Source: Candidatus Parcubacteria bacterium (lineage in GTDB: Bacteria > Patescibacteriota > Patescibacteriia > Patescibacteriales > BM507). Taken from it: a stretch of 64,000 bases of DNA. The stretch lies in the NCBI GenBank assembly GCA_002869265.1, contig PKTH01000036.1, forward strand, positions 168,525 to 232,524. Direction: 5' to 3'. Of the stretch, positions 4,609 to 42,655 are shown one piece after another. The notes under the pieces are model-generated. The model made no database searches and was not told where the DNA came from. It worked only from the letters and a program-made list of their open reading frames with translations. The translations under genes and the position numbers were made by a program. Each line of letters begins with the position of its first letter. The stretch's first letter is position 1.

Positions 4609-4621
4609 TTATGAAAAGTTG

Positions 4622-25400: not shown

Positions 25401-28400
25401 TGAAACAGTGTCAGGAACAGACTATGTAGTCCCCACTGAAATTCACGGATCTTTTACTCCGGCCCCACCTCACGAGATAAAAACAAATATTATTTTTAAC
25501 AATAGTGGTTCCTATACTTCCTACATGGACTCAGAAGGTAACCCTGCTTGGAATGCTCTGCGTCTCTCGAAGGGTGATACTCTCGGGGTAACTAACACTA
25601 GTTTAAATATTTCAATTATTTCTGCTAGCTCCTCTGTTGACATCCCTGTTTTCCCAACATCAGGTAATTGTTATCAAGCAGGAATATCGGCTAATACTGA
25701 AACTACAAATTTTGACATATCAGGCTGTGCTGGATCTGAGCAATACTTATGGTACAAAGTAGATTTCACACCATCACCAGATTTTAGTGCCTCACCACTC
25801 CTTGAAGACATCACGGTTAGCTCTGACGTTACTCTTTTTGATAACTTCCTCCTAGGCACATATTCATCTCCAGTAATTAATACTAATTCTCCAACAGTTG
25901 ATGGGGGAATAAATATTTCATGGAATGCTACCACTTCTGGTGGTTCGGTTGAATTCATGGTAGCCTCGGCTGATTCAGATACAGGTCCTTGGACATTTAT
26001 GGATAAAACCGGCGCTAGCCCCGCTGATTGCTCTGGGGGAGGGTGCTATACCCTTAATTCAGGCGATGTTTTGAGTGCTCATCACAATGGTAAACAATAT
26101 TTCCGCTACAAGGCATTTCTCGAAGCTCCAGATGGCTCTTCTAGCCCAGTACTCAATGATGTCACTCTAAGTTATGATAGCTATCCAACAGATGATCAAT
26201 ATCTAATATCATCTGTATTTAACACTCAAGATGCCGCTAATCTAATTGGTGAAGTTGGTCTCAAGTGGAATTCTTTTCCTGATAATACAGACATTAGAAT
26301 GCAAGTGAGGACTAGTCCAGATAATAATACTTGGTCTCCCTGGTGTGGAGAGACTAATACTTGTGATGGCTCTGATTACTATACTTTCTCCTCTGCCTCT
26401 CCTGGAGAATATATTTATGATGTCATAGATGGCCACCCCATTCAAAATGATCTAGATGATCAATTTTTCCAATACAAGATCACCCTAAATTCAGATGGAC
26501 AATATACTCCTGTAGTAACTGAAGCTGATGTCACTTACGTTATCAACGCTCCACCAATATTTGAGAGTGATTATCCCAACGCAGGAGATGATGGTGTAGG
26601 AGCCTCACAGGTCTTTAAAGTAGTTGTTATTGACTATGCCATCCAGGACCCTGATACTGTTACCGCCACTATCACTCCCTCATACCACTACTCTCTAGAC
26701 TCTGGTAATACTTGGAGTGAAGTAATCGAAGATGGTTTCACCATCACTGCTCTTGGGGACCAGGACGTTACTAACCAATCTTCTGAGCCATATACTTTTG
26801 AATACTACTCATATGACTGGGAAGCAGCAGCTGAGATCGGTTTTGACGCCTCAACCACTGAGGCCATTATTAAAATTGTTGCCAATGACGGGGATGCGGC
26901 TAATGCAATTTCTGAGGCTACCAGCACAACATTTACTCTCAATACCAGCGCTCTCTCTAATGCTACCGCTACTCAAACACCAGAAGATACAGTTAGAAGA
27001 GGCTATGTTTTAGTTAACTATGACTACGATATCGCTCCAAGGATGAGCGCTTCAACTACAGTTGAGCTATTCTACTACCAGAACGGTTTATACGTTCCAG
27101 CTAATACTGTCCAGGCTGATGCTGGTCTAGGAGTAACTAGTGGAGCTGGAAAAGAGATAGAATGGATTGCTCGTGATGATTGGGGAGGAGTAGCTACTAC
27201 TACCAATGTCAAAATTAAAATCACATATTCAGGCGTAGAAATCCATAGTGAGGAAATAATTTCTAGTGATTTTGAACTAGATACAAAGGCTCCAGATTTC
27301 ACATTTTTTGATACAGTAAATGAGGAATACTACCCAACATATATTACCGCCAGTACCAGTCCAGGTACTGTGCACTTCTCCCCAGTAGATGATAATGCTA
27401 TTCACTATAAACTAAGTGAAGATGATGATTTTTCGAACGAAAGCTGGGAAGATTTAGTTATCCTAACTACTTATTCGCTCACTAACCCAGATGAGATCTA
27501 CACTATATTTAGAGATGAGTTTGATAACATTAGCGCTACCACGACTTCTATCACTCCAGAGCAAACAATCTACGCCATGATCCAAGATACCTCAAATCTA
27601 TTACCTGAGAATGATCTAGAAAAAGAATATCGACTGTTTCTGGCTTGGCGAGAAGTGGCTGAGCCGGCTAATGGTTTTCGCGAATACCGCGTATATTACA
27701 GAGACAATGACTCTGGGCCATTTATTTTTCTGGATAATGTAATCAGGAAGAGTGATAATTATTATGGAGACAATAGTTTAAGCCTGGACCAACAAAGATA
27801 TTATCGGGTAAGCACTGTTGATAACAAAGGAAATGAATCTTATCTCTCAGAAATATTAGTTGGACGAGCTAACGGTATACTAGACGAAGGCGAAGGAGGA
27901 ACTCCAGCTAGAGGAGAAGATGCCGTACCACCAGAGATATCAGCTGTCGCTACTTCATCACTATATACCACTCAAGTGACTATCACCTGGGATACTAATG
28001 AAATCTCTAACTCTATTGTAGAGTATGGCACCTCACCAGGGGATTTCTCCCTAGCCACCAAAACAATTGCTACTATGCGAGATGATAATGACAATCTCGG
28101 TGAACATGTTGTGATACTCTCAGGTCTAGAACCCAACACTGACTACTATTTTCAAGTTAAGTCCAGAGACGCTCTGGCTAACACTGGCTTTGCAAAGAAC
28201 GGGGGACTAGGTTATCATTTCAGAACCCCCACAGGACCTACCATTGAAATATCTCCAAGCGTAATGACCGGTACTCTAAAGAACTCAACAGTTACTATTA
28301 TCTGGAATACTGATATTAATTCAGACTCTTCGGTATATTATTCTACTTCACCTACCTTCACTACTTTTGATACATTCTCTGTTGATAATGATACTCAGAG

Positions 28401-31400
28401 CCATAGGGCTGACCTCACAGGACTATCTCCAGATACTAGGTACTATTACTACGTCACCTCAGATAACGCTATTGATAACAATGAAGAGGAATACTATGAT
28501 TTCAAAACTACTTTTGATACTGATCCCCCCAGAATAATAGTCGACTTCCCAGCAGATATTACAGATATTACAGATAATTCAGCTCTCATTTCTTGGAAAA
28601 CCGGTGAGTTGGCCAGTTCTAGTATTCATTACGGCATTGTTGATACCACGGAAGATAGTCAGTTTAATGATAATCTAAACACTGATCACAGCTTTAGACT
28701 GGAAGGTCTTCTACCAGGAGAGACTTATCAATTTAGAATTGAGAACACAGATGAAAATGTTAACAACAATAATAATAGTCTAACTACCTACAGTTTTATC
28801 ACGAAGGTGACTAATGATGAGGATGCTCCGGTAATCATCCCTCCAATTAACATTCCTTCAATAGATTATTCTTCAGCCACTATTACTTGGGATGTTGAAG
28901 GTGGGGAAACAGAAAAGACTTCTGCTTTAGTTGATTTTGGCCTAGATAATACTTTTGGAACAAGTCAAGGTAATTCAATTCCTAGGCTAGGAGGCACCAA
29001 GGTGGTTACGCTCTCAGGCCTAGCAGCCAGCACAACATATTTTTTCCAGGTAAAATCCTTCGATGAATCTGGGAACTATGATTATGACAATAATGGGGGA
29101 GAGGGATATACTTTTAAAACAGAGGACGCACCAGACACCGAAGATGTTACTCCACCAATACTGAATTGGACCGGGGAGGCTAACAAGACTGATTCTAGTA
29201 TTACTATATCCTGGACGACCCTAGGGGAACCCGCTGACTCAGTGGTTGCTTTTGAGCTTGCCGATGGGAATGGTTCTTATTCACAAGAACAAGGAATTGC
29301 CGGTTTAAGAGAGGAGCACACAGTAACTCTCGTCGGTCTAAACCCTTCCACTGATTATCACTATATAATTAAATCTCGTAATGCAGCTGGTATTGTGGGG
29401 ACAAATAATTATCTTGGAAATGGTTATCCCTTTACCACTGATGCTGGGGCTGACAAGACCCCCCCAAAGATTACAGTAAATGTCTCAACAAGCACTTTGG
29501 CTGACACCGATACTAGTATTAGAATAGAATGGCAAACAGATGAAGAGTCATCTTCTTTAGTGGACTATGGTACCAGCGAAGGTTCTTTTGTCTATACCCA
29601 GGGAGACCCTCGTCCTGACTTAACTTCTCATCGAGTTGATTTAGTTAACTTAGAACCAGGCACTGACTACTATTTCAGAGTGAGGTCTCTTGATTCTTCT
29701 AATAATCAATTCAAGGATGATAATGGAGATTTGGGTTATCACTTTAAAACCACAATTGACGATGTTGCCCCAATTATCACCTTCACTCCTGCTTCTGACA
29801 TCACAGACAAAACAGCCAACTCCACGAGAATTTCCTGGGTTACCAATGAACCAGTAATTTCAAGTATTGAATATGGCGAGACTCAGAGTTTTGGCCTCTT
29901 AAGCGATAACGCTAACTACAACCAAGATCACTCCATTGTCATAGATGGCCTAAACCCTAACACAGAATACTTTTTTAAACTAATTAGCATAGATATCCTT
30001 GGCAATGTTGCTTCGAGCTCTCAACAACTTGGCATTCCATTTGCATTTACTACAGAACTAAGTGCTGATACTACTCCTCCCAACATTACTCAGGTTTCGC
30101 TTGTTGCATCACCAGGACCAACCAGTGCTCAGATTCATTGGTTTACCAATGAGCCTTTTCCTGACCTCTCCTCATCTCTAGTGGACTTTGCAGCTTCAAG
30201 CACACTCACTTCTCTAAATACAATCACTCAAGGATCGTCAATGGCCTTTACGGCAGATCATTATGTTACATTGACTGGTCTTATGCCAGACACCACCTAT
30301 AGTTATCAGGTAAAATCATTTGATGAATCTGGCAATCAATCAACTAACAGTAATAATGGTGCCTACTACACCTTCACTACAGATTCAGGCTCTGACCCAA
30401 CTGACACTACCCCTCCGGTTATTACTAACGCTACCACTACGAATATTACTGCAAATACAGCTACAATTACCTGGGATACAGATGACCCATCTGATTCAGT
30501 GGTGGGCTATTCGCTGAATACTAGCTATTCTAGAGAAATTGGCAGTCCAGTAGCTTCCACTTCCCACTCAATCACTCTGAGTGGTCTAAGTCCTGAAACT
30601 ACATACAATTTCCAGCTTAAGTCTAGGGATGAGAATGGTAATCTGGCAACCAGTTCAGGGCATGTTCTTGTTACCACTTCTGGTACAGACAATAGTCCAC
30701 CAACTATTTCAAGCATAGCTCATGATAATATTACCCAGAGTACAGCTAGGATTAGGTGGAATACTGACGAAGAAAAGGCCTCTTCTTTAGTTGACTTTGG
30801 TCTCTCTTCTGGAAATTTCTCTCAGTCTCAAGGAAACCCTACTGCTGATTCAACTAGTCACGAAGTTATTCTCACTGGACTTGAGTTAGGAGAAACATAT
30901 TATTATCGAGTACGTTCATTTGATGCTGCTGGTAATCAAATGACCAGCACTGTGAATGATGCTGGTCAAAGACTTGTGTTTACAAGCATAGATGACAACA
31001 CTCCACCTAGCATCACTAATGTGGAAGAAGGGTTAATTGGAGATACCTACGCAGTAATTAACTGGGATACAAACGAACCAGCTGATTCCAAGATAGACTA
31101 CGGAGAGGAATCTAACAACCTGGATAAATCTTTAACATATGTTGGTTTAACAGAAGATCATTCAGTTACCATCACTGGGCTAGAGCCTGATACTACATAC
31201 TACTACAAAGCAATCTCAAGTGATGATAATACCAACACTGGCTCATCGACAATTAGGAGTTTTGTCACCAAAGAAAACTTAATAGAAGAGTCGGAGGTAG
31301 AGGAAAGAGAAGAGGCGGCTAGAGTGGGGGTAGAAGAAGAAAGTCAGGGCGGCGGCGGAGTTATCATCATAGATAAAACAGATAAAACACCACCTACCAT

Positions 31401-33072
31401 CTCTAGTGTTCGAGTAGCGGAGTTAGGGGAATCACATGCCAGAATAACCTGGACTACAGATGAAGTGGCTAATTCGACTATAGCCTATGGTTTTGGAACC
31501 TCCTATACAAAGGCTGATACAGATGTTGCTTCATTATCCAACAACACCACCTCTCACTCAGTAACGATTAAGCATCTCATACCCCTCACCGCCTACCATT
31601 TCTCGGCCGTCTCTATTGATGTTAATGGTAATGTTGCTAACTCTCCTGACTATACATTCACCACTAGAGAAGAGGGGGATACCGAAGAGAATATCACGCC
31701 AGAAAAAGCCGAAGAGGTAGAAGAATCACTAGAAAAGATCCAAGAACTAGCGGCTGACCTCCTAACCACAGGAGCAGCTGACGAGACTGATATCAAAGAC
31801 GCTATTGCTAAGATGACTGATCCACCAATGATTACCGGAGATGGTCCAGAAGTCCACGAAATCACCTCTAAAGGTGCTCTTGTAGTCTGGGCTACTGACA
31901 GAAGAGCTAATTCTGTAGTCTCATACTTCAAAACAGAAGAAGGAATAGAGAATGCTAGGCAAGTTGGTAATTTTGAAGAATTAGTCACAGACCACCAGGT
32001 ACGTATTACTGGACTTGAAGCTGGTACCAGCTATACATTCATTGGTAAATCAATAGATACTCTAGGTAATGTTGGAGCCTCAGACCCTATCAACTTCACT
32101 ACAGAAATCATCCCATATATCTCTAAAGTATCAATCAAGAATATCAAACACGACTCAGTAGAGATAGACTGGCATTCTAACACTCAAACTACCTCACTAC
32201 TCGAATACGGTATAGATGAGAACTATGGTAATGATATTATTGTTGATACTGTGGAGCATACCTTGGGACATGAAGCTAGGCTAAGTGATTTAAGCCCAGG
32301 AACCACTTACCACTTTAGGGTAAAGGGCTATACTTCTAGAGGGGAAATTATTTATTCAGACGACTACACCTTCACCACTCTTTCTAGTCCAGATGTCCTT
32401 GGCTACTCTATTGATAGTATTACTGACAAAACAGCTACTATCTCTTGGTCAACAAGCGAGAGAACAAGTTCTGAGATAGAATACGTCAATACAGAGACCT
32501 CTGTCTCAAAGAAAGTCTCTAACTCTGAATTAATAAAACAACATATTATCAAACTAAGAGAATTATCTCCGGGAATTAGCTATGACTTCATTATCCGTGG
32601 TCTAGATAAATTTGGACAAGAAACAGAGTCAGAAACATTCTCTTTTACTACTTTGGTTGATACTCAAGCACCAATCATTGAATTCGTGAAGACTGAGATG
32701 TCTTTAATAACTAAAGGACAGGATGACAGGGTCCAGGCTGTAATTACCTGGAACACAGAAGAAAAGTCCACCTCAGAGATAATCTATACAGAAGGAGTCC
32801 AGAGTGCAATCTCAGAAGAAGAGATGGGAACTGATGCTAATATTAAGTTAGTAAAGACAGAGGGGGAGTTAACCAGTAAACATGTTATTGTTGTCACTGA
32901 CTTTAGAGTCGGCTCTGTTTACACTCTTCGAGCTAAGTCAATTGATGAGGCTGGGAATGTTTCCTATTCAAAGAACTATACTGTATTAACACCTCAAAAA
33001 GAGGAATCAGTTTTAGAGATAATTCTAAAAACCTTCGAAGACACATTTGGTTGGCTAGGCTTAGGTGTTTAG
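22492..33072 (+). CDS. Giant (3526 aa) membrane-anchored surface protein: basic N-terminus, TM, 14 RCC1 repeats, three ~120-aa modules, ~17 FN3-like modules
   Basis: Single uninterrupted 10.6-kb ORF. TM ATLGTGSIVSIAVLFFITGWF at about residues 85-105. Repeated CWGxNxxGQLG. Repeated W.T.E...S.V.YG...H.V.L.GL.P.T.YY..V.S.D..GN. Confidence 0.9.
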   Translation: MIKKNKTLMFKYWLKRAKIFFKLYYRRTLLASKDLRSVLFSSTSDNYLRVESCRKEQDGHIKCTFTANFKSYRALKRFQKRLRTATLGTGSIVSIAVLFFITGWFTSNNLGFLDAATYDYTQGSWSGGLSGEVAWHPFDNWDHYSSSSDNIKIDTNGYFSLATTTNLEIHTNYTDFSTTTAIFSQATTTDQSGDVGIKLNKVSGTYTLVQTDDGATTTSPTSDFNDAHTANKGGWGNRGAGAFLNTLQNGVSGEGASIGLSSVEFGQFSRSLSHVCAINNLSGKMFCWGANSDGQIGNGTYSLNAKEYIPDEVEGGHFWIDVDTSHKVTCAIRVDNKILCWGSNISRQLGDSSILGKALFPNEVVGGKFWEKLSVGNNHVCAIEKDTKELYCWGLNGYGQLGLNDTDYRDNPTSLSTGKKWIDIQSGVDFTCAIDDSNVAYCWGRGYAGELGVGDENDRLVPTIVEGGHLWSKISNGAGHTCGILRDGGKMYCWGNDSYAQLGNGDTVGNYSSPLKISDEEWTHISSGGLSSCAIKKSDNQIYCWGLGSSYGLGNGELVNKQDPTPVLSGEEWKDVSFGDYGACGLRTNDNTLMCWGNGFSGQNATNSFDDKPIPTSIQGAYLPVYWDWTDFDVGYQASCARRNNDQTYCWGLKNYGVLGDGDTSPGVEYLPTLTSGTYSKISIGHEHVCAIEEGTNFLYCWGSYGSGRLGLGDTGNENIFVPTKVTGTWKDVSPGDNHTCAIDMNDLAYCWGNGAVGALGQGIADIEDKLVPTQILGGIAWSKIVAGDNFNCGIEKTTGHLYCWGWGQYGRLGIAIGDSDNRYEPTLISSDFWIDLSSIDDHACAIDSNKDLYCWGYGLSYRLGNGSPTSKYIPTEITDSGKKWKSVSAGAQHTCAIEDVTEKAYCWGEGNNGRLGNNDITEADQPTPVLVYGNKSWEKISSGGYMTCGLEKNTNKVFCWGNGAYLSLNETVSGTDYVVPTEIHGSFTPAPPHEIKTNIIFNNSGSYTSYMDSEGNPAWNALRLSKGDTLGVTNTSLNISIISASSSVDIPVFPTSGNCYQAGISANTETTNFDISGCAGSEQYLWYKVDFTPSPDFSASPLLEDITVSSDVTLFDNFLLGTYSSPVINTNSPTVDGGINISWNATTSGGSVEFMVASADSDTGPWTFMDKTGASPADCSGGGCYTLNSGDVLSAHHNGKQYFRYKAFLEAPDGSSSPVLNDVTLSYDSYPTDDQYLISSVFNTQDAANLIGEVGLKWNSFPDNTDIRMQVRTSPDNNTWSPWCGETNTCDGSDYYTFSSASPGEYIYDVIDGHPIQNDLDDQFFQYKITLNSDGQYTPVVTEADVTYVINAPPIFESDYPNAGDDGVGASQVFKVVVIDYAIQDPDTVTATITPSYHYSLDSGNTWSEVIEDGFTITALGDQDVTNQSSEPYTFEYYSYDWEAAAEIGFDASTTEAIIKIVANDGDAANAISEATSTTFTLNTSALSNATATQTPEDTVRRGYVLVNYDYDIAPRMSASTTVELFYYQNGLYVPANTVQADAGLGVTSGAGKEIEWIARDDWGGVATTTNVKIKITYSGVEIHSEEIISSDFELDTKAPDFTFFDTVNEEYYPTYITASTSPGTVHFSPVDDNAIHYKLSEDDDFSNESWEDLVILTTYSLTNPDEIYTIFRDEFDNISATTTSITPEQTIYAMIQDTSNLLPENDLEKEYRLFLAWREVAEPANGFREYRVYYRDNDSGPFIFLDNVIRKSDNYYGDNSLSLDQQRYYRVSTVDNKGNESYLSEILVGRANGILDEGEGGTPARGEDAVPPEISAVATSSLYTTQVTITWDTNEISNSIVEYGTSPGDFSLATKTIATMRDDNDNLGEHVVILSGLEPNTDYYFQVKSRDALANTGFAKNGGLGYHFRTPTGPTIEISPSVMTGTLKNSTVTIIWNTDINSDSSVYYSTSPTFTTFDTFSVDNDTQSHRADLTGLSPDTRYYYYVTSDNAIDNNEEEYYDFKTTFDTDPPRIIVDFPADITDITDNSALISWKTGELASSSIHYGIVDTTEDSQFNDNLNTDHSFRLEGLLPGETYQFRIENTDENVNNNNNSLTTYSFITKVTNDEDAPVIIPPINIPSIDYSSATITWDVEGGETEKTSALVDFGLDNTFGTSQGNSIPRLGGTKVVTLSGLAASTTYFFQVKSFDESGNYDYDNNGGEGYTFKTEDAPDTEDVTPPILNWTGEANKTDSSITISWTTLGEPADSVVAFELADGNGSYSQEQGIAGLREEHTVTLVGLNPSTDYHYIIKSRNAAGIVGTNNYLGNGYPFTTDAGADKTPPKITVNVSTSTLADTDTSIRIEWQTDEESSSLVDYGTSEGSFVYTQGDPRPDLTSHRVDLVNLEPGTDYYFRVRSLDSSNNQFKDDNGDLGYHFKTTIDDVAPIITFTPASDITDKTANSTRISWVTNEPVISSIEYGETQSFGLLSDNANYNQDHSIVIDGLNPNTEYFFKLISIDILGNVASSSQQLGIPFAFTTELSADTTPPNITQVSLVASPGPTSAQIHWFTNEPFPDLSSSLVDFAASSTLTSLNTITQGSSMAFTADHYVTLTGLMPDTTYSYQVKSFDESGNQSTNSNNGAYYTFTTDSGSDPTDTTPPVITNATTTNITANTATITWDTDDPSDSVVGYSLNTSYSREIGSPVASTSHSITLSGLSPETTYNFQLKSRDENGNLATSSGHVLVTTSGTDNSPPTISSIAHDNITQSTARIRWNTDEEKASSLVDFGLSSGNFSQSQGNPTADSTSHEVILTGLELGETYYYRVRSFDAAGNQMTSTVNDAGQRLVFTSIDDNTPPSITNVEEGLIGDTYAVINWDTNEPADSKIDYGEESNNLDKSLTYVGLTEDHSVTITGLEPDTTYYYKAISSDDNTNTGSSTIRSFVTKENLIEESEVEEREEAARVGVEEESQGGGGVIIIDKTDKTPPTISSVRVAELGESHARITWTTDEVANSTIAYGFGTSYTKADTDVASLSNNTTSHSVTIKHLIPLTAYHFSAVSIDVNGNVANSPDYTFTTREEGDTEENITPEKAEEVEESLEKIQELAADLLTTGAADETDIKDAIAKMTDPPMITGDGPEVHEITSKGALVVWATDRRANSVVSYFKTEEGIENARQVGNFEELVTDHQVRITGLEAGTSYTFIGKSIDTLGNVGASDPINFTTEIIPYISKVSIKNIKHDSVEIDWHSNTQTTSLLEYGIDENYGNDIIVDTVEHTLGHEARLSDLSPGTTYHFRVKGYTSRGEIIYSDDYTFTTLSSPDVLGYSIDSITDKTATISWSTSERTSSEIEYVNTETSVSKKVSNSELIKQHIIKLRELSPGISYDFIIRGLDKFGQETESETFSFTTLVDTQAPIIEFVKTEMSLITKGQDDRVQAVITWNTEEKSTSEIIYTEGVQSAISEEEMGTDANIKLVKTEGELTSKHVIVVTDFRVGSVYTLRAKSIDEAGNVSYSKNYTVLTPQKEESVLEIILKTFEDTFGWLGLGV
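23300..25400 (+). repeat. 14 tandem RCC1/ATS1-type beta-propeller blades (protein-level repeat, period ~153-165 nt)
   Basis: 14 C-W-G codon triplets (TGY TGG GGN) at about 23350, 23509, 23661, 23813, 23965, 24118, 24271, 24436, 24590, 24741, 24898, 25051, 25209 and 25366. Confidence 0.85.
27925..32995 (+). repeat. Array of 16 divergent FN3-like modules (~95-105 aa each), plus one more upstream at ~27620-27870
   Basis: Each module contains (I/V)xW.T(D/N)E..(S/D)S.V.YG and H.V.L.GL.P.T.Y.(Y/F).V.S.D..GN. Two acidic linkers lie at ~31260-31380 and ~31660-31840. Confidence 0.8.
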
Positions 33073-35416: not shown

Positions 35417-36394
35417 ATGGAAAATACAGAAAATATTCATGATGTGAGTCCACACGAAAGAATTGAGGGGCACTCTGAAGAGATGCATATTGAGCATCAA
35501 GCAATTTTAGCCGAGACCATGAATACCGAAGACGCTGAGCATATAATAGATGAACATTCGGCTGTAGTCGAGCATGAAGGGGAGACACATGATTTAGTTC
35601 ATGAAAACACCTTGTTTGCAGAACCAATTGCCGAGGTTGCTGGATTACCGATAACAAACTCTTTGGTAAATACTTGGGTAGTTGTTTTGATAATTGTACT
35701 GCTTTCTTATTTTATCCGAAAAAATGTAAAAACCATACCAGGAAAAGTACAAAATGCATTTGAGATGATAGTAGAAGGTTTTTTAGGAATATTTGATTCT
35801 GTTACAGGTTCTAGAAAAGTTTCATTGAAATTTTTTCCTATGGTCTTTTCTTTTTTCTTGCTGATATTGATATATAATTGGATGGGCTTACTCCCTGGAG
35901 TAGGTTCTGTTGGACAGGTTCAAGTGCATGACGGACACAATATGTTTATCCCATATTTAAGAGGAGGAACCGCTGATATAAATACTACGCTTGCCTTGGC
36001 TCTTATTGGAGTTGTGGCTAGTCATATATTTGGAATATTGACTTTGGGTATGTGGAATCACCTAAATAAATTTGTGAACTTTAAAGCGTTTATGGAGATT
36101 CCTAAGAAAGTTAAGAAAGACTGGACTGTGTTGATTGTGAATCCTATTAAAGCATTCGTTGGTTTGATTGAAATCATCGGTGAGCTGGCTAAGGTGGCTA
36201 GTTTGACGTTCAGGCTTTTTGGTAATATTTTTGCTGGGGAAGTTCTCTTAGCATCAATGTCTGCCATTCTGGCCTTTGGCTTGCCAATCCCGTTTATGTT
36301 TATGGAAGTTTTAGTCGGACTTATCCAAGCGCTTATTTTCTCAATCCTGATTTTGTCATATTTATCAATGGCAACCAGCGCTGAGGAACATTAG
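35417..36394 (+). CDS. atpB: F0 ATP synthase subunit a with a His/Glu-rich N-terminal extension
   Basis: 325 aa. Essential-Arg motif LTFRLFGNIFAGE. First ~70 residues are rich in H, E and D. Confidence 0.93.
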   Translation: MENTENIHDVSPHERIEGHSEEMHIEHQAILAETMNTEDAEHIIDEHSAVVEHEGETHDLVHENTLFAEPIAEVAGLPITNSLVNTWVVVLIIVLLSYFIRKNVKTIPGKVQNAFEMIVEGFLGIFDSVTGSRKVSLKFFPMVFSFFLLILIYNWMGLLPGVGSVGQVQVHDGHNMFIPYLRGGTADINTTLALALIGVVASHIFGILTLGMWNHLNKFVNFKAFMEIPKKVKKDWTVLIVNPIKAFVGLIEIIGELAKVASLTFRLFGNIFAGEVLLASMSAILAFGLPIPFMFMEVLVGLIQALIFSILILSYLSMATSAEEH

Positions 36395-36427
36395 TATTTT
36401 GAATTTTATTAATATATAAATAACTAA

Positions 36428-36652
<225 letters not shown>

Positions 36653-36718
36653 TATTTTTGCTAACTGTTCCTTTCGTATTCGAAGGGGGCAGGAGTAAAA
36701 TTATTAAATTATACAAAT

Positions 36719-37216
36719 ATGGATTCATTAATAGAAATTTTTCACATTGACGCAAAACTTCTGATCGCTCAGATGATTAACTTCGCTATTGTTATTAGCG
36801 TATTATACTTTTTTGCTTTAAAACCTCTAATGAAAGTAATGGAAGAGCGAACAAAAAAGATAGAAAAAAGCATGGATGATGCTAAAAGAATAGAAGAAAA
36901 GTTAGAAAAAACAGATGCTGATTATAAAGAGGCTTTAGGAAATGCTAAAAAAGAAGCAAATGTAATAATGGAAAAAGCAACAGCTCAAGCAGAGGAAAAG
37001 AGAGAACAAATGATTAAAAAAGCCAAGGAAGATATTGGAGCTATTATTAATGACGAGAAAGCAAAGATGCAAGCAGAGAAGGCTGAGGTTTTAAGGGAAA
37101 TTAAAAAGGAGGTTGCTGGCATGGTTACAGCTTCTCTGGAGAAAGTTTTAGAAGAAAAAGTAGATGCTAAGGCCGACAAGGATTTAATTAAAAAAATAGT
37201 AGCTGAAAGTAAATAA
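36719..37216 (+). CDS. atpF: F0 ATP synthase subunit b
   Basis: 165 aa. N-terminal TM followed by a long K/E/A-rich helix. Operon position fits. Confidence 0.9.
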   Translation: MDSLIEIFHIDAKLLIAQMINFAIVISVLYFFALKPLMKVMEERTKKIEKSMDDAKRIEEKLEKTDADYKEALGNAKKEANVIMEKATAQAEEKREQMIKKAKEDIGAIINDEKAKMQAEKAEVLREIKKEVAGMVTASLEKVLEEKVDAKADKDLIKKIVAESK

Positions 37217-37217
37217 T

Positions 37218-37619
37218 ATGAAAGCAAGCTCAAAACAATATGCTGTCACTCTCTATGATTTAGTAGAGGGCAAGACTCAAAAAGAAATCTCCGACGTTTT
37301 GAAGAGCTTTTTTGAACTTTTGAAGAAAGACAATGTTTTGTCTAGACTTGATGACGTATTGAAGGAATTTAATGATATATGGAATAAGGAAAATGGAATA
37401 GTAGAAGCTTCAGTTGTATCTGCAAGAGAACTAGACAAGGCAAGTAAAAAGGAAATTGTTGATTATATAAAAACTGCCAGCAAAGCAGAAGATGTTGTTT
37501 TGGATGAAAGTGTTGATGAGAAAATTCTCGGCGGGGTTATTGTAAAATATGCAGACAAGATTGTAGATAGTAGTTTAAAAGGAAGAGTAAGTAGTTTAAA
37601 GCGTTCTTTAGAGAAATAA
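37218..37619 (+). CDS. atpH: F1 ATP synthase subunit delta (OSCP), unusually short
   Basis: 133 aa. C-terminal OSCP motif ILGGVIVKYADKIVDSSLKGRVSSLK. About 45 residues shorter than typical delta subunits. Confidence 0.8.
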   Translation: MKASSKQYAVTLYDLVEGKTQKEISDVLKSFFELLKKDNVLSRLDDVLKEFNDIWNKENGIVEASVVSARELDKASKKEIVDYIKTASKAEDVVLDESVDEKILGGVIVKYADKIVDSSLKGRVSSLKRSLEK

Positions 37620-37620
37620 A

Positions 37621-37646
37621 AAAGGCACCACTTTTGTGATGCCTTG
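37621..37646 (-). terminator. Hairpin with a U-tract only in the minus orientation
   Basis: AAGGCACCAC-tttt-GTGATGCCTT. The minus-strand reading is followed by TTTTTTATTT. The plus-strand reading is followed by GTAATG, with no T-run. Confidence 0.6.
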
Positions 37647-37654
37647 TAATGATG

Positions 37655-38089
37655 CTACATGAGTCTTTTCACGACAGTTGTTAGGTGAATGATTTCTTCA
37701 AGCATAAGGAATTCTTCATTGTTAAGCCTTGCGTGTAGATTAGTGATAAGTATTAAACGCTTATTAGTAGCGCAGGTTGGGCATTCTTCCTCGGGCATGG
37801 AGTTAGGGGCGGTATAGATGTTTTCTTTGTGAATGTTGCAGCCATTAAGAGGTCTAGTGCAATCCTGACAGACTGATTCTTTCCCAGACAGCTGGTCTAC
37901 TTGGCTCCTGAGAAAAAGAATCTCACCTAAATGAATCTTTTTCTGAGAGTCAAAATCTCGTGTAAAAAATTGGATTGCATCTTTTAACATGATTTCGGCA
38001 CATTTGAGACAAGGGATTTCCGGCATTTTACCCAAAGGGTAGTAGAGGTTATCATTGTGCTCAGGACAAGCGTCTATCTTCCTTCTCAT
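37655..38089 (-). CDS. Hypothetical Cys-rich protein with a duplicated C-x2-H-x15-C-x2-C module, antisense inside the atp locus
   Basis: Start set at ATG 38089, 5 nt after AGGAGG (complement of 38095-38100). The ORF-track TTG 38140 is less likely. Repeats are CPEHNDNLYYPLGKMPEIPCLKC and CNIHKENIYTAPNSMPEEECPTC. Confidence 0.65.
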   Translation of the reverse strand: MRRKIDACPEHNDNLYYPLGKMPEIPCLKCAEIMLKDAIQFFTRDFDSQKKIHLGEILFLRSQVDQLSGKESVCQDCTRPLNGCNIHKENIYTAPNSMPEEECPTCATNKRLILITNLHARLNNEEFLMLEEIIHLTTVVKRLM

Positions 38090-38291
38090 TTGGGCCTCCT
38101 GGATTTTGTTTGGAATTATTGTCAGTAGATTTTTTTCCAAAAAGACTTGGAAGAATTTTATCGATAAATTCTGAATAATCTCTTCGGGGTTTAACCAACG
38201 GTTTATGAAATTTCATAAATCACCTCAAATAAAAGTTTATAAAGAACAGCAATTAAATAAATATAGTAAAAATAATAATTTAAGTCAATAT

Positions 38292-39824
38292 ATGAGTAAA
38301 ACTAAGGATTTTATTGTCGAGCAGTTAAAAAAGCAAATTTCTGATTATAAGCTCTCTAGCCAAGAACAAACAGTTGGTCGGGTAGCGGAGATTGGTGATG
38401 GTATTGCTCGAATCACAGGCCTTTCTGACGTGATGATGTCAGAGATGCTTGAGTTTAACACCAAAGAAGGTGTTGTTAATGGTGTGGTTCTTAACCTGGA
38501 AGAAGATTCAGTTGGAGCTATTTTGCTAGGAGAGTATTCTGGTATTAAAGAAGGAGATGAAGTAAAAGCATTAAAAAGAATTTTAGAAGTTCCTGTTGGT
38601 GAAGCATTGGTAGGTAGAGTGGTAAACGCTCTAGGTCAACCAGTTGATGGAAAAGGAGAGATAAAAGAAGAAAAGTTCTACCCAATTGAAAAGATTGCCC
38701 CTGGCGTTATTACTCGTCAATCAGTGTTTGAGCCAGTACAAACTGGTATTAAGGCTATTGATTCTATGATTCCTGTTGGTCGTGGTCAACGTGAGTTGAT
38801 TATCGGAGATAGACAGATTGGTAAAACAGCTATTGCAGTTGATGCAATCATTAACCAAAAAGGACAAAACATGAAATGCGTTTATGTTGCAGTTGGTCAA
38901 AAAGAATCAAAGATTGCAAATATCGTTGCCAAATTAGAAGAAAATGGAGCAATGGAATACACAACAGTTGTTTTAGCTGGTGCTTCTGATCCTGCTTCAC
39001 TTTCATATATCGCCCCTTACTCAGGAACAGCAATCGCTGAATATTTCCTAGATAAAGGAGAAGATGTTTTGGTTGTTTATGATGATCTGTCTAAGCACGC
39101 TGTCGCCTATAGAGAAATCTCACTACTATTAAAGAGACCTCCGGGACGTGAGGCTTATCCTGGTGATGTTTTTTATCTTCACTCAAGACTTTTGGAAAGA
39201 TCATGTAAATTAAATAAAGACTTCGGCGGAGGATCTATTACCGCACTTCCTATTATTGAAACTCAAGCTGGAGATGTTTCTGCCTATATTCCAACCAATG
39301 TTATTTCTATTACAGATGGTCAGATTTACTTAGAAACAGATTTATTTAACCAAGGTAACAGACCGGCAGTAAACGCTGGTTTATCAGTATCTCGTGTTGG
39401 ATCAGCCGCACAAACAAAAGCGATGAAAAAAGTTGCCGGTAAAATGAGACTAGAGGCAGCTCAATACAGAGAGTTGGCTGCTTTTGCTCAATTCGGTTCA
39501 GATCTAGATGCTGAGACAAAAGCTAAGCTTGAAAGAGGAAAAAGAATTGTTGAAATCTTTAAGCAAGGTCAATATCAGCCGATCTCAATGGAAAAACAGG
39601 TTTCAATTTTCTATGCAGCGATTAATGGTTTACTTGATACAGTCCCTGTTGAAAAAATTGCAGAATTTGAATTGGGAATGTATAAGTATTTAGAAAATAA
39701 TTCTGATATCTATAAAAAGATTGCTGATAAAGGTGAATTGAGCGATGAATTAAACGCAGAAATTGAAAAAGTGGTCAATGACTACAAGGATACTCTTGAC
39801 TATATTACAAAAGAAGAAAAATAA
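38292..39824 (+). CDS. atpA: F1 ATP synthase subunit alpha
   Basis: Walker [12 protein letters not shown] 38292 gives 510 aa starting [13 protein letters not shown]. The ORF-track start 38205 adds a non-conserved 29 aa. Confidence 0.95.
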
Positions 39825-39826
39825 TT

Positions 39827-40786
39827 ATGGCGTCAATTAAAGACATCCAAAGAAGAATAAAATCAGTTAAAAATACTCGTAAAGTTACCAAGGCGATGGA
39901 AATGGTTGCGGCTGCCAAAATGAGAAAAGCAATAGAATCAGTATTGAAAACTAGAACTTATGCTAACCTAAGTTGGGAGACCATCTTGAATATTTCTAAA
40001 GCCGCTAATGGAGCTGCTGCTGGACATAAGCTTTTAGTAAAAAGAGACAAAGTAGAGAGAGTAGGAATAATTTTAATTACATCAAATAGAGGTTTGTGCG
40101 GTGGTTTTAATACAAACATTATCACTAAAGCTCATAAGTCTATTGAAATGCATCATAAGGATGGGAAAAAGGTGGAATTTGTCACAATTGGTAAAAAGGG
40201 GATTGGTGCTAAAAAGTACTATGGATATGATGTAGTGGCTGAATTCCCCAAGGAAGATATTATTACAGAGGTAAAAGAAGTTTATGATATCGCAAAGTTG
40301 GTTATTGACGACTATACAAGTGGTAAGTATGACAAGGTTATGGTTGCTTATACTGACTTTGTTAATGCCGCTACCCAAGAGCCTAGAGTAAAACAGCTTT
40401 TACCAGTTGATATAAATGCCGAAGATGAATATCTGGGAGTTGTTGGTTCTGATACTAGGGTAGGAACCACGAAAGAGATGATTGAAGAAAAGACAGAGAA
40501 GCACCTTAGCGATGAAAAATATGACCTTGATTATACTTTTGAACCAAGCCCAATGGAGGTATTGGATGAGATGATTCCAAGACTTATTGAGGTGCAGTTG
40601 TTTCAAGCATTGCTTGAATCAAATGCTTCAGAACACAGTGCCAGAATGACAGCTATGCACCAAGCAACTGATGCGGCTTCAGATATGATTTCAGAGTTAA
40701 CATTGTCATATAATAAAGCTAGACAAGAAAAGATTACGAATGAAATAGCAGAAATTACAGCAGGGGCTAATGCACTAAGTATGTAG
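39827..40786 (+). CDS. atpG: F1 ATP synthase subunit gamma
   Basis: 319 aa. N-terminus IKDIQRRIKSVKNTRKVTKAMEMVAAAKMRKA. C-terminus ITNEIAEITAGANAL. Confidence 0.95.
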   Translation: MASIKDIQRRIKSVKNTRKVTKAMEMVAAAKMRKAIESVLKTRTYANLSWETILNISKAANGAAAGHKLLVKRDKVERVGIILITSNRGLCGGFNTNIITKAHKSIEMHHKDGKKVEFVTIGKKGIGAKKYYGYDVVAEFPKEDIITEVKEVYDIAKLVIDDYTSGKYDKVMVAYTDFVNAATQEPRVKQLLPVDINAEDEYLGVVGSDTRVGTTKEMIEEKTEKHLSDEKYDLDYTFEPSPMEVLDEMIPRLIEVQLFQALLESNASEHSARMTAMHQATDAASDMISELTLSYNKARQEKITNEIAEITAGANALSM

Positions 40787-40816
40787 GAGTTGACTTATAA
40801 AAATATCAAATAATAA

Positions 40817-42205
<1,389 letters not shown>

Positions 42206-42223
42206 GATTTAAATCTAGATTTT

Positions 42224-42655
42224 ATGAAATTAATAAAATTTGAAATAGTAACCCCGGAGAGAATGGTATTGCAAGAGCAGGTTCAACAGGTTGTAGCTCC
42301 TACAAAAGCCGGTGAAATTACTGTATTGCCTGGGCATATTCCTTTAGTGTCTTCATTGCAATCAGGAGTAATTGAGGTAAAAAACGAAAAAGGGGAGTAT
42401 GAGGTAATGAGTGTTTCCGGTGGCTTTTTAGAAGTTTTAAAGGACAAAGTTGTTGTTTTAGCTGACACAGCGGAGAGAGCAGAAGAGCTGGATGAGAAAA
42501 GGATAGAAGAGGCTAGAGCCAGAGCAGAAGAGTCCAAAAAAGATATTAGAACTTTTGATAGAGAGAGATTTGCTAGTATTAGCGCTAAAATGGCAAAAGA
42601 ACTAGCCAGATCTAAGGCAGCAAAGAGATGGAGAAAGTTAAAAAATATTGACTAA
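42224..42655 (+). CDS. atpC: F1 ATP synthase subunit epsilon
   Basis: 143 aa. Beta-sandwich N-terminus (FEIVTPERMV..), helical C-terminus. Operon position fits. Confidence 0.9.
   Translation: MKLIKFEIVTPERMVLQEQVQQVVAPTKAGEITVLPGHIPLVSSLQSGVIEVKNEKGEYEVMSVSGGFLEVLKDKVVVLADTAERAEELDEKRIEEARARAEESKKDIRTFDRERFASISAKMAKELARSKAAKRWRKLKNID

What the first reader, a model, noticed from the sequence alone, without database searches (positions are those of the whole stretch)
37621..38291. ATP synthase locus split by an antisense SD-led gene encoding a duplicated C-x2-H-x15-C-x2-C module
Between atpH (ends 37619) and atpA (starts 38292) lies a 670-bp gap. It holds a minus-strand 144-aa gene with a perfect AGGAGG-5-ATG.

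The protein contains two copies of a 23-residue unit, CPEHNDNLYYPLGKMPEIPCLKC and CNIHKENIYTAPNSMPEEECPTC. The shared residues are C..H..N.Y.....MPE..C..C. A CQDC pair is also present. This implies two CHCC or Cys4-type metal sites of a kind I do not recognise.

The hairpin after atpH has a U-tract only in the minus orientation. atpBEFH transcription may therefore read through antisense to this gene into atpAGDC. That would set up convergent-transcription or antisense coupling between the insert and ATP synthase expression. This is inference.
Basis: partly seen in the sequence, partly recalled or inferred. Interest (0 to 1): 0.6.

Follow-up and report, generated by a model that had tools for sequence, protein, structure and literature searches.

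The report
Homing-endonuclease-type zinc-finger gene inside atp operon
A small foreign-looking gene sits backwards between two ATP synthase genes of an uncultured Parcubacteria bacterium. Its "unrecognised" duplicated Cys/His motif looks like a very divergent copy of the zinc-finger DNA-binding repeats that phage homing endonucleases carry, so it is best read as a leftover or domesticated piece of a selfish element, not a part or conserved regulator of ATP synthase.

Summary
A 672-nt gap between atpH and atpA holds a minus-strand 144-aa ORF (37655-38089) with AGGAGG-5-ATG. It has its own promoter-like site, an intrinsic terminator that works only in the minus direction, and two C-x2-H-x15-C-x2-C modules.

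The module appears to be a known kind. An all-against-all HMMER search found a single distant relative, an array of DUF723/DUF4379 repeats with exactly this ligand spacing. Profile-profile comparison with that family gives 94% probability (E 1e-7), far above shuffles that keep the Cys/His positions. Pfam's own models do not detect the protein.

In the literature these repeats are the predicted modular Zn-finger DNA-binding domains of phage T5orf172 homing endonucleases. They are described as similar to CapR, a nuclease-less derivative that acts as a repressor. This protein has no nuclease domain.

The gene is unique to this genome. None of 77 relatives has it, and most have atpH and atpA 8-50 nt apart. 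Its GC3 and codon usage are atypical, and host genes in the window almost never have an SD.

I read it as a horizontally acquired, nuclease-free remnant or domesticated homing-endonuclease DNA-binding protein. Interest is low to moderate.

The parts
37218..37619 (+). atpH (F1 delta/OSCP subunit, short 133-aa form), upstream flank of the insert.
   Evidence: Pfam OSCP E 2.5e-26, profile positions 56-172. It aligns over its full length with AtpH of 77 relatives.
37610..37645 (-). Intrinsic terminator of the minus-strand unit. It is a 10-bp stem (37645-37622) followed by UUUUUUAUUUCU. The U-tract overlaps the atpH stop codon. On the plus strand the hairpin has no U-tract.
   Evidence: Terminator scan, minus strand only. 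Fold energies are -15.1 kcal/mol (z -3.2) on the minus strand and -12.3 (z -1.95) on the plus strand.
37655..38089 (-). znf144, a 144-aa protein with two CHCC zinc-finger modules and no nuclease domain. It is a divergent relative of the DUF723/DUF4379 repeat family.
   Evidence: ORF and SD. phmmer against 1.84 billion representatives found only itself and P0002, at E 4.4e-4. hhalign against family alignment A2 gave prob 94.1%, E 1.2e-7, and shuffle controls were far lower. There is no Pfam, NCBIfam or PADLOC hit, and PHROGs gave only a non-significant match (E 0.093). GC3 is 0.43 against host 0.285±0.041.
38000..38068 (-). Module 1, residues 8-30: CPEHNDNLYYPLGKMPEIPCLKC (C8, H11, C27, C30).
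   Evidence: It aligns with the family's CPEHGEFWQTPxxHLxGxGCPKC.
37859..37870 (-). CQDC pair, residues 74-77. It aligns with the family's 'VCIIC' that precedes the His. The query has a 7-residue insertion (TRPLNGC) here.
37772..37840 (-). Module 2, residues 84-106: CNIHKENIYTAPNSMPEEECPTC (C84, H87, C103, C106).
   Evidence: DNA identity to module 1 is 31/69, so the duplication is old.
37661..37780 (-). C-terminal helical hairpin, residues 104-143. 'NNEEFLMLEEIIH' resembles the helix 'TTEEFIxKAxxxH' that opens each family repeat, so this may be a truncated third repeat or a dimerisation element.
   Evidence: AF2 with MSA gives pLDDT 80-92 for residues 101-144. hhalign extends to residue 135.
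38095..38100 (-). Shine-Dalgarno AGGAGG, 5 nt before the znf144 ATG.
   Evidence: Such motifs are rare in this window: 42 of 51 long ORFs have no SD-like tetramer.
38061..38216 (-). orf51, a 51-aa basic ORF with GAGGTG-4-ATG. It overlaps the znf144 start by 29 nt and has no homologues.
   Evidence: It was called as a gene in an independent assembly. Its codon usage is host-like.
38202..38219 (.). Perfect 18-nt palindrome TTTATGAAATTTCATAAA covering the orf51 start codon. It is a candidate operator, which is speculative.
   Evidence: Inverted repeat I14, 9+9 nt, 100% complementary, no spacer.
38260..38288 (-). Promoter-like site for the minus-strand unit: TTGACT-17-TATATT, 10 of 12 matches.
38268..38291 (+). 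Conserved element just upstream of atpA, AATAATAATTTAAGTCAATAT. It is shared with L001, L007 and L025. On the plus strand it reads as a -10-like hexamer, and on the minus strand as the -35-like TTGACT.
   Evidence: Alignment A3. The motif is not repeated elsewhere.
38292..39824 (+). atpA (F1 alpha subunit), downstream flank. It has no SD.
   Evidence: Pfam; 73-80% identity to relatives from residue 1; upstream sequence.

Best explanation
The atpH-atpA gap carries a self-contained minus-strand transcription unit: a promoter-like site, orf51, znf144 and an intrinsic terminator. znf144 encodes a small nuclease-free protein. Its two C-x2-H-x15-C-x2-C units are highly divergent copies of the DUF723/DUF4379 zinc-finger repeats, which the literature describes as similar to CapR. 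These repeats are the predicted modular DNA-binding region of phage T5orf172-type free-standing homing endonucleases.

The gene is a lineage-specific, probably horizontally acquired insertion. It sits at an operon junction that is naturally variable in this Parcubacteria clade.

**Inferred mechanism.** Each module binds one Zn2+ through Cys-His-Cys-Cys, and the protein binds specific double-stranded DNA, possibly as a dimer through its C-terminal helices. It is either the decaying DNA-binding remnant of a homing endonuclease or a domesticated CapR-like DNA-binding or repressor protein. It is not a subunit or a conserved regulator of ATP synthase.

**Shown:** the gene anatomy, the family relationship, its absence from relatives and its atypical composition.
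**Inferred:** Zn binding, DNA binding and foreign origin.
**Unknown:** expression and target.
For: **Family relationship**
- Exhaustive phmmer found only one non-self hit, P0002 (E 4.4e-4, four repeat matches).
- P0002 is an array of about 63-aa repeats ending in CPEHGEFWQTPxxHLxGxGCPKC, which has the identical ligand spacing. It hits Pfam DUF4379 ('probable treble clef zinc finger') and DUF723 above their cut-offs, plus CapR below its cut-off (18.6 vs 24.2 bits), and PHROGs 'endonuclease' and 'HNH endonuclease'.
- hhalign of the query against a 25-member family alignment that excludes the query gives prob 94.1%, E 1.2e-7 over 105 columns. These span module 1, the linker, module 2 and the next helix.
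- The score is 49.2. Full shuffles give 11.8±2.4 (maximum 20.7) and shuffles with the Cys/His fixed give 16.3±3.9 (maximum 31.3).
- The only tblastn hit in 50,697 phage records is weak (E 0.6). It falls in the repeat region of a 549-aa Vibrio phage protein annotated T5orf172, with six ITCPEHGDFLQTP..HL.G.GC.KC repeats.

**Literature**
- DUF723, 'DUF4397' (written DUF723/4379 in a figure legend) and CapR are described as related, predicted Zn-finger DNA-binding domains, often repeated, of T5orf172 homing endonucleases (PMC10448857).
- CapR is a nuclease-less derivative that represses a phage operon, and its Cys residues are required for DNA binding (PMC8096241).

**No nuclease**
- There is no hit to any nuclease family. 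Only about 200 nt of non-znf144 sequence remains in the gap.

**Lineage-specific and foreign-looking**
- No homologue was found in 77 related loci or in a metagenome scan.
- GC3 is 0.43 against host 0.285±0.041, above all 49 reference ORFs. The CAI-like score has z -2.7.
- It has a perfect SD, whereas 42 of 51 host ORFs, all atp genes and atpA of relatives lack one.

**Variable junction**
- The junction holds 8-50 nt in most relatives, long hairpins in many, a GNAT gene in L011 and small minus-strand SD-led ORFs in L001, L007, L014 and L025.

**Parallels elsewhere**
- DUF723-only small genes occur free-standing in contigs whose neighbouring genes are bacterial housekeeping genes. One is split into two ORFs, which looks like decay.
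Against: - Pfam's own DUF723, DUF4379 and CapR models do not detect the protein, even at E 10.
- The family's hallmark residues outside the ligands (YDYSKVxY, GEFWQ, HLxG) are not kept.
- The repeat period is 76 aa rather than about 63 aa.
- AF2 does not give a confident fold for the modules (pLDDT 39-57), and fold searches find nothing.
- No solved structure of the family exists for comparison.
- Only one genome carries the gene, so there is no conservation or dN/dS evidence that it is functional.
- Atypical GC3 in a single 144-codon gene is suggestive of foreign origin, not proof.
Confidence: 0.6

Rival explanations
1. Inert remnant. The unit is a decaying homing-endonuclease fragment or pseudogene that is no longer expressed or functional, and it merely interrupts the operon.
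For: - It is an orphan, with no variants in 15 billion proteins.
- The repeat architecture is truncated. The N-terminus starts directly at the zinc knuckle without the helix and hairpin of a full repeat, and the C-terminus ends in what looks like the first helix of a third repeat.
- Family hallmark residues are lost, and there is no nuclease domain.
- An analogous DUF723 gene in another genome is split into two overlapping ORFs.
- orf51 contains 'DYSEFIDKI', reminiscent of the family helix 'TTEEFIxKA'. An A7 run lies between the two frames, hinting at a frameshift.
Against: - A 144-161-codon open frame is very unlikely to persist by chance at about 40% GC. My estimate is about 3e-5 for 161 codons, assuming A=T=0.3 and G=C=0.2.
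- All eight CHCC ligands of both modules are intact.
- The unit has a perfect SD, a promoter-like site and a good terminator.
- The frameshift-fusion idea was tested and gave no gain in profile score: 49.3 against 49.2, and the N-terminal part alone has P 0.12.
Confidence: 0.3
2. The insert is a functional regulatory module in which convergent or antisense transcription between atpBEFH read-through and the minus-strand gene couples its expression to ATP synthase expression.
For: - The geometry is as described. No plus-strand terminator follows atpH, and the hairpin has a U-tract only on the minus strand.
- Relatives with contiguous genes imply that atpH and atpA are normally co-transcribed.
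- Four other relatives (L001, L007, L014, L025) also carry SD-led minus-strand small ORFs in this gap. Three of them (L001, L007, L025) share a conserved motif next to atpA.
Against: - The gene is absent from all 77 relatives, so it is not a conserved feature of ATP synthase regulation.
- The junction contents are heterogeneous: hairpins, a GNAT gene and unrelated small ORFs.
- A conserved -10-like element directly upstream of atpA suggests that atpAGDC may have its own promoter in genomes with inserts.
- No transcript data are available.
- Antisense overlap is an unavoidable by-product of any opposite-strand insertion.
Confidence: 0.1
3. A genuinely new metal-binding family. On this view the resemblance to DUF723/DUF4379 is convergence on a CHCC knuckle pattern, and the protein does something other than bind DNA, for example redox or metal sensing.
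For: - Pfam models fail to detect it.
- The two modules share N.Y.....MPE with each other but not with the family.
- There is an extra CQDC pair.
- AF2 predicts the linker as helical rather than the helix plus beta-hairpin implied by the family's YDYSKVEY motif.
Against: The profile match covers 105 columns, including the linker (F41, H53, S62, V64, V73-C74..C77) and the post-module helix. It remains about 8 sd above shuffles that keep all the Cys and His in place. The ligand spacing of 15 residues is identical in both modules and in the family.
Confidence: 0.12

Closest known systems
DUF723 (PF05265) / DUF4379 (PF14311, 'probable treble clef zinc finger') repeats of phage T5orf172-type homing endonucleases. 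Examples are Vibrio phage 1.023.O NVP1023O_48 and PHROGs 681/559.
   Same: The ligand pattern C-x2-H-x15-C-x2-C is identical. The repeats are tandem and separated by a helix-containing linker. The profile-profile match is significant (prob 94%, E 1e-7). It is a free-standing gene lying on the opposite strand between conserved genes, as in the Vibrio phage example.
   Different: It has only two modules and no T5orf172, GIY-YIG or HNH nuclease domain. The hallmark residues (YDYSKVxY, GEFWQ, HLxG) are replaced. There is a 7-aa insertion with an extra Cys before module 2, and the period is 76 aa against about 63 aa. It is not detected by the Pfam HMMs. The host is a Parcubacteria chromosome, not a phage.
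CapR of the Vibrio cholerae PLE satellite, a domesticated homing-endonuclease DNA-binding domain (PMC8096241).
   Same: It is a nuclease-less derivative of the Zn-finger DNA-binding region of T5orf172 homing endonucleases. It is a small stand-alone protein. This is a plausible model for what znf144 could do, namely act as a sequence-specific repressor.
   Different: CapR's motif is CxxC-(24-26)-CxC, not CHCC with a 15-residue spacer. CapR's target and function were shown experimentally, whereas nothing is known here. The sequence relationship to CapR was not tested: P0002 hits the Pfam CapR model only below its cut-off (18.6 vs 24.2 bits), and the query was never compared with a CapR profile.
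Small DUF723-only proteins (120-196 aa, 2-3 repeats), abundant in metagenomes and in contigs with bacterial housekeeping neighbours.
   Same: The architecture is the same: two to three repeats and no nuclease. They are free-standing between housekeeping genes.
   Different: Those proteins are 50-66% identical to each other and keep the full consensus. znf144 is only 18-31% identical to them and forms its own orphan branch.
Free-standing homing endonuclease genes of T4-like phages (seg/mob) and the I-TevI zinc finger (from my own knowledge and PMC8096241).
   Same: The position is analogous, a selfish gene wedged between conserved genes. [quoted passage not shown]
   Different: The I-TevI finger is Cys4 and single-copy, and there is no detectable sequence relationship. 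Those genes encode active nucleases.

Membership tests
DUF723/DUF4379 zinc-finger repeat family | Ligand pattern C-x2-H-x15-C-x2-C in each repeat. | tested here: met
   Both modules have it. The family consensus is CPEHGEFWQTPxxHLxGxGCPKC.
DUF723/DUF4379 zinc-finger repeat family | Passes the Pfam gathering threshold of PF05265 or PF14311. | tested here: not met
   No Pfam hit for the whole protein or for isolated modules, even at E 10.
DUF723/DUF4379 zinc-finger repeat family | Statistically significant profile similarity across the repeat unit, not only at the ligands. | tested here: met
   phmmer E 4.4e-4 against 1.84 billion sequences. hhalign prob 94.1%, E 1.2e-7 over 105 columns. Shuffles with Cys/His fixed reach at most 31.3 against 49.2.
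DUF723/DUF4379 zinc-finger repeat family | Conserved non-ligand motifs: TTEEFIxKAxxxHG, YDYSKVxY, GEFWQ, HLxG. | tested here: not met
   Only traces are kept (F41, H53, S62, V64, E10/E89, and 'NNEEFLMLEEIIH' at the C-terminus). The aromatic motifs are absent.
DUF723/DUF4379 zinc-finger repeat family | Treble-clef fold that binds Zn. | tested here: inconclusive
   AF2 models have pLDDT 39-57 in the modules, and fold searches give only E>3. No solved family structure exists. Zn binding cannot be tested with these tools.
Homing endonuclease (T5orf172/GIY-YIG or HNH) | Presence of a nuclease domain. | tested here: not met
   No nuclease family hit in znf144 or orf51 in Pfam, NCBIfam, PHROGs or PADLOC. 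The gap is too short to hide one.
Homing endonuclease (T5orf172/GIY-YIG or HNH) | Presence/absence polymorphism at a conserved target site between otherwise syntenic genomes. | tested here: met
   The insert is present only in this genome. 77 relatives lack it, and most have contiguous atpH-atpA. The relatives are distant (AtpA at most 80% identical), so this is weak evidence for homing as such.
CapR-like domesticated repressor | Nuclease-less stand-alone protein made of a homing-endonuclease DNA-binding module. | tested here: met
CapR-like domesticated repressor | CapR-domain motif CxxC-(24-26)-CxC, and sequence-specific operator binding that represses transcription. | tested here: not met
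   The motif differs (CHCC with a 15-residue spacer). DNA binding and repression are not testable here.
Intrinsic (Rho-independent) terminator | GC-containing stem followed by a U-tract on the transcribed strand. | tested here: met
   Met on the minus strand only.

The most novel reading that the evidence does not exclude
znf144 is a domesticated, CapR-like repressor in a CPR bacterium. It would bind the divergent promoter region it shares with atpA, for example the perfect 18-nt palindrome at 38202-38219 or the conserved TTAAGTCAATA element, and so gate expression of the F1 genes atpAGDC.

More broadly, the atpH|atpA junction of Parcubacteria would be a hotspot where SD-led antisense selfish genes lodge and are held in check by read-through transcription of the highly expressed atp operon. 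These genes include small hydrophobic, Lys-rich peptides in L001, L007 and L025 that resemble type I toxins.
Probability: 0.07. Interest if true: 0.6.

Novelty: new member of a known kind. Interest (0 to 1): 0.28.

Why it matters
The finding shows that an "unrecognisable" duplicated Cys/His motif can be traced, through a single remote hit and a profile test, to the DNA-binding repeats of phage homing endonucleases. This extends that family to an extremely divergent, nuclease-free orphan in a Candidate Phyla Radiation genome.

It is also a clean example of a foreign gene splitting one of the most conserved bacterial operons. Several relatives carry other cargo at the same junction, which suggests the junction tolerates or attracts insertions.

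If the protein were shown to bind DNA near atpA, it would be a second natural case, after CapR, of a homing-endonuclease DNA-binding domain recruited for gene regulation. As it stands, it does not change our understanding of ATP synthase.

Tried and rejected
- **Direct family scans.** Pfam, NCBIfam and PADLOC gave no hit for znf144 or orf51, including isolated modules at E 10. PHROGs gave only non-significant matches (E 0.09 and 0.23).
- **PDB sequence search.** Nothing for the protein or for the family profile.
- **Structure prediction.** The single-sequence AF2 model had pLDDT 54. With a 51-sequence MSA it reached 66, but the Zn modules stayed at 39-57. Foldseek against PDB and BFVD gave only E>3. 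All of this is uninformative.
- **Word-indexed search of 5.8 billion proteins and metagenome DNA scan with znf144.** Only itself, or nothing. The exact look-up of the NCBI 123-aa product was not on record.
- **Frameshift hypothesis.** I tested whether orf51 and znf144 were once one ORF, broken at an A7 run. The fused protein scores no better against the family (49.3 against 49.2), and the N-terminal part alone has P 0.12. The idea is not supported.
- **Target-site duplication.** A 27-nt direct repeat (74% identity) at 37567 and 38229, spaced 662 nt, is at chance level in AT-rich DNA and was not pursued.
- **Rfam in the gap.** Only sub-threshold chance hits.
- **orf51 homologues.** None apart from itself.
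- **Literature on SD usage in Patescibacteria.** Nothing usable in the library.
- **Other copies of the module.** None in the window or in 80 related loci.
Full report
**1. Checking the observation**

The region reads as the first-stage reader described it.
- atpH (37218-37619, Pfam OSCP E 2.5e-26) and atpA (38292-39824, three ATP-synt_ab domains) are separated by 672 nt.
- The atp locus is otherwise complete and collinear: atpI-like, atpB, atpE, atpF, atpH, the gap, then atpA, atpG, atpD and atpC.
- On the minus strand a 144-aa ORF (37655-38089) starts at an ATG that lies 5 nt after AGGAGG.
- It contains C8-x2-H11-x15-C27-x2-C30 and C84-x2-H87-x15-C103-x2-C106, with 9 of 23 residues shared, plus C74-x2-C77.
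- The regex C..H.{15}C..C occurs only at these two places in the six-frame translation of the 64-kb window. It occurs 0.01 times per shuffled window and never in about 800 kb of related loci.
- The two modules are only 31/69 identical at the DNA level, so the duplication is old.
- The hairpin 37622-37645 qualifies as an intrinsic terminator only on the minus strand. There it folds at -15.1 kcal/mol (z -3.2) and is followed by U6AUUUCU. On the plus strand it folds at -12.3 kcal/mol and has no U-tract.
- A promoter-like TTGACT-17-TATATT lies on the minus strand at 38288-38260.
- A second SD-led minus ORF, orf51 (38216-38061, GAGGTG-4-ATG), overlaps the znf144 start by 29 nt.
- An independent Logan assembly (SRR5894287) has the identical insert, with 2 SNPs elsewhere in 6.2 kb. 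Both ORFs were called there.
- NCBI annotates the gene as hypothetical protein C0584_04555 of a Candidatus Parcubacteria bacterium, with a later start (123 aa). The homology described below begins at residue 7, which favours the 144-aa start.

**2. What the protein is**

Curated libraries gave no significant hit. Pfam, NCBIfam and PADLOC found nothing, and PHROGs gave only a match at E 0.093. The word-indexed 5.8-billion-protein search found only the protein itself.

The exhaustive phmmer search of 1.84 billion cluster representatives returned one other protein, P0002 (585 aa, E 4.4e-4, four matched stretches).
- P0002 is an array of about 63-aa repeats, 'TTEEFIAEARKVHGDKYDYSKVEYxNxxTKVCIICPEHGEFWQTPxxHLxGxGCPKC'. 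The zinc knuckles have exactly the C-x2-H-x15-C-x2-C spacing of the query.
- P0002 hits Pfam DUF4379 ('probable treble clef zinc finger', 5 stretches) and DUF723 above their cut-offs.
- It also hits the CapR homology domain, but below that model's cut-off (18.6 vs 24.2 bits).
- It matches PHROGs 681 'endonuclease' and 559 'HNH endonuclease' at E 1e-103 and 5e-89.
- BLASTP and phmmer align query residues 7-107 to one full repeat-to-repeat span of P0002. The span covers module, linker helix with a conserved Phe and His, 'S.V' strand, 'VC..C', and the next module. A 7-residue insertion (TRPLNGC) lies before module 2.

A profile search seeded with this alignment retrieved more than 4,400 proteins. 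The 120 best listed all carry DUF723, often with DUF4379, and are 120-196 aa long, that is 2-3 repeats and nothing else.

For a non-circular test I aligned 25 of these without the query (A2) and compared the query to it.
- hhalign gave probability 94.1%, E 1.2e-7 over 105 columns. The alignment extends into the C-terminal 'NNEEFLMLEEIIH', which matches the helix 'TTEEFIxKAxxxH' that opens the next repeat.
- 100 full shuffles of the query score 11.8±2.4 (maximum 20.7).
- 100 shuffles that keep the ten motif Cys/His in place score 16.3±3.9 (maximum 31.3).
- The real score is 49.2. The similarity therefore does not rest on the ligand pattern alone.

The only tblastn hit in 50,697 phage genomes is weak by itself (E 0.6). 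It falls in the repeat region of a 549-aa Vibrio phage protein annotated T5orf172. That protein has six 'ITCPEHGDFLQTPxxHLxGxGCxKC' repeats followed by about 100 C-terminal residues outside the repeats. Its gene lies on the opposite strand from its neighbours.

**3. What is known about that family**

- Barth et al. (PMC10448857) describe CapR, DUF723 and 'DUF4397' (written DUF723/4379 in a figure legend) as related, predicted Zn-finger DNA-binding domains. At least one of them is present in 87% of the phage T5orf172 homing endonucleases they surveyed, and they are often repeated and shuffled by recombination.
- Netter et al. (PMC8096241) showed that PLE CapR is a nuclease-less derivative of this DNA-binding region. 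It represses the ICP1 capsid operon, and its four conserved Cys are needed for DNA binding.
- No solved structure exists for the family.

**4. Limits of the assignment**

- The Pfam HMMs do not reach the query.
- The aromatic hallmarks (YDYSKVxY, GEFWQ, HLxG) are gone.
- The two query modules share N.Y.....MPE with each other and not with the family.
- AF2 gives pLDDT 39-57 for the modules, even with a 51-sequence family MSA. Only the C-terminal helical hairpin (residues 104-143) is confident (pLDDT 80-92). Foldseek searches are empty.

I therefore call it a very divergent relative, an orphan branch, and not a regular member.

There is no nuclease domain in znf144 or orf51, and the gap has no room for one.

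**5. Context and origin**

I fetched 80 loci around the closest AtpA homologues (73-80% identity). All are Parcubacteria, Falkowbacteria or Patescibacteria MAGs.
- In the 77 loci that contain both genes, neither znf144 nor orf51 has a tblastn match.
- The atpH-atpA spacer is 8-50 nt in most of them. A metagenome scan also found nothing.
- The junction is nevertheless variable. About a dozen relatives have 70-155-nt spacers that fold into long hairpins built from short tandem repeats and their complements (for example L028 -27.5 kcal/mol, z -10.5, and L033 -62.7 kcal/mol, z -11.1).
- Nine relatives have spacers of 246-618 nt with unrelated contents. These include a plus-strand GNAT acetyltransferase in L011 (Pfam E 6e-12) and small minus-strand ORFs.
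- On an AtpA NJ tree, long-gap and short-gap genomes are interleaved, and the window's genome sits on its own long branch. The contents of the junction have therefore been gained and lost repeatedly.

znf144 is compositionally atypical.
- Its GC3 is 0.43 against 0.285±0.041 for 49 host ORFs, higher than all of them.
- Its CAI-like score has z -2.7.
- Its perfect SD stands out. 42 of 51 long ORFs in the window have no SD-like tetramer within 20 nt, none of the eight atp genes has one, and atpA of about 20 relatives lacks one too.

Together these features point to horizontal acquisition from an SD-using, less AT-rich donor. This is an inference.

Free-standing DUF723-only genes also occur in contigs whose neighbouring genes are bacterial housekeeping genes. 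One is split into two overlapping ORFs.

**6. How it most likely works**

- **Shown:** a self-contained minus-strand unit with promoter-like site, SD, ORFs and terminator; a family relationship to homing-endonuclease zinc-finger DNA-binding repeats; absence from relatives.
- **Inferred:** each module chelates one Zn2+ through C-H-C-C. The protein binds specific DNA, perhaps as a dimer through the C-terminal helical hairpin.
- **Functional status:** it is either a decaying remnant or a domesticated CapR-like binder. The intact 144-161-codon frame, the complete ligand sets and the expression signals argue against advanced decay. The truncated repeat architecture and orphan status argue against a long-standing function.
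- **Possible operator:** a perfect 18-nt palindrome (38202-38219) over the orf51 start is a candidate operator. This is speculation.

A roughly 24-nt element just upstream of atpA (…AATAATTTAAGTCAATA…) is shared with L001, L007 and L025. It reads as a -10-like hexamer on the plus strand, so genomes with inserts may drive atpAGDC from their own promoter. On the minus strand the same element reads as the -35-like TTGACT.

**7. Verdict**

The gene is a new, highly divergent, nuclease-free member of a known kind of module, lodged as a lineage-specific insertion in a conserved operon. Interest is 0.28.

Noticed in passing
window, all long ORFs; atp genes 35417-42655; relatives L001-L075: Host genes almost never have a Shine-Dalgarno sequence. 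42 of 51 long ORFs have no GGAG/GAGG/AGGA within 20 nt upstream, none of atpB/E/F/H/A/G/D/C has one, and atpA of about 20 relatives lacks one too. Upstream regions are plain A/T-rich.
   Followed up: partly
window 49679-50092 (-) and 59107-59430 (-): Apart from an internal ATG at 267, the only other long ORFs in the window with a strong SD are also small minus-strand genes without Pfam hits, in a mostly plus-strand context. One is 137 aa (AAGGAG; N-terminal hydrophobic segments). The other is 107 aa (GGGAGG; GC3 0.39, lowest CAI-like score in the window), which looks foreign like znf144.
   Followed up: partly
L001 4789-4932 (-), L007 3555-3713 (-), L025 4624-4914 (-) and 4443-4643 (-), L014 gap 4616-5000 (-): Several relatives with long atpH-atpA gaps carry minus-strand small ORFs with perfect GGAGG SDs. 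In L001, L007 and L025 the ORF starts 68-86 nt from the atpA ATG, compared with 75 nt for orf51 in the window. It encodes a hydrophobic N-terminal helix plus a Lys/Arg-rich tail, which resembles a type I toxin. L025 has two overlapping ORFs, like the window. A chance origin in AT-rich DNA is not excluded.
   Followed up: partly
window 38268-38291; L001 ~4975-5000; L007 ~3755-3782; L025 ~4960-4986: A conserved element, ATAAATTATAATTTAAGTCAATAG-like, lies directly upstream of atpA only in genomes with long inserts. It reads as -10-like on the plus strand and contains TTGACT on the minus strand. It is not a dispersed repeat.
   Followed up: partly
L002, L008, L010, L016, L023, L027, L028, L029, L033, L042, L051, L064, L065: atpH-atpA spacers: In many relatives the 70-155-nt spacer between atpH and atpA is a long hairpin made of short tandem repeats and their complements. 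Stems reach about 40 bp, with -18 to -63 kcal/mol and z down to -11. This may be a punctuation, processing or stability element between the atpBEFH and atpAGDC halves of the operon.
   Followed up: partly
window 38202-38219: A perfect 18-nt palindrome, TTTATGAAATTTCATAAA, places an ATG on each strand. One is the orf51 start on the minus strand. The other is an in-frame upstream ATG of atpA at 38205 on the plus strand. By rough estimate the chance probability in this 780-nt region is about 0.06.
   Followed up: no
window 38138-38168 (-): orf51 contains 'DYSEFIDKI', which resembles the family helix 'TTEEFIxKA'. An A7 run separates its frame from the znf144 frame, so a one-base slip would fuse them into a 186-aa protein. 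The profile test gave no support.
   Followed up: yes
window 37218-37619 and AtpH of all 77 relatives: AtpH (delta) is only about 133 aa and matches only positions 56-172 of the 172-position OSCP profile. AtpH of the relatives aligns with nearly the full length of this short protein, so the short form appears to be shared across the clade.
   Followed up: no
window 35417-35665 (+): AtpB (a subunit) has an N-terminal extension of about 83 aa before the ATP-synt_A domain. The extension is rich in His, Glu and Asp (MENTENIHDVSPHERIEGHSEEMHIEHQ…HEGETHDLVHE).
   Followed up: no
window 22492-33072 (+): A giant 3526-aa ORF combines RCC1/RLD beta-propeller repeats, 12 purple-acid-phosphatase-N/PhoD-N-like domains and fibronectin type III domains. 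It is probably a surface protein.
   Followed up: no
L011 4463-4975 (+): A GNAT acetyltransferase gene sits on the same strand between atpH and atpA in one relative (Pfam E 6e-12).
   Followed up: partly
L081 4001-5357 (+): A DUF723 gene sits among bacterial housekeeping genes (HU-like, EamA, ClpS/ClpA neighbours). It is split into two overlapping ORFs of 170 and 297 aa, which looks like a frameshifted, decaying copy.
   Followed up: no
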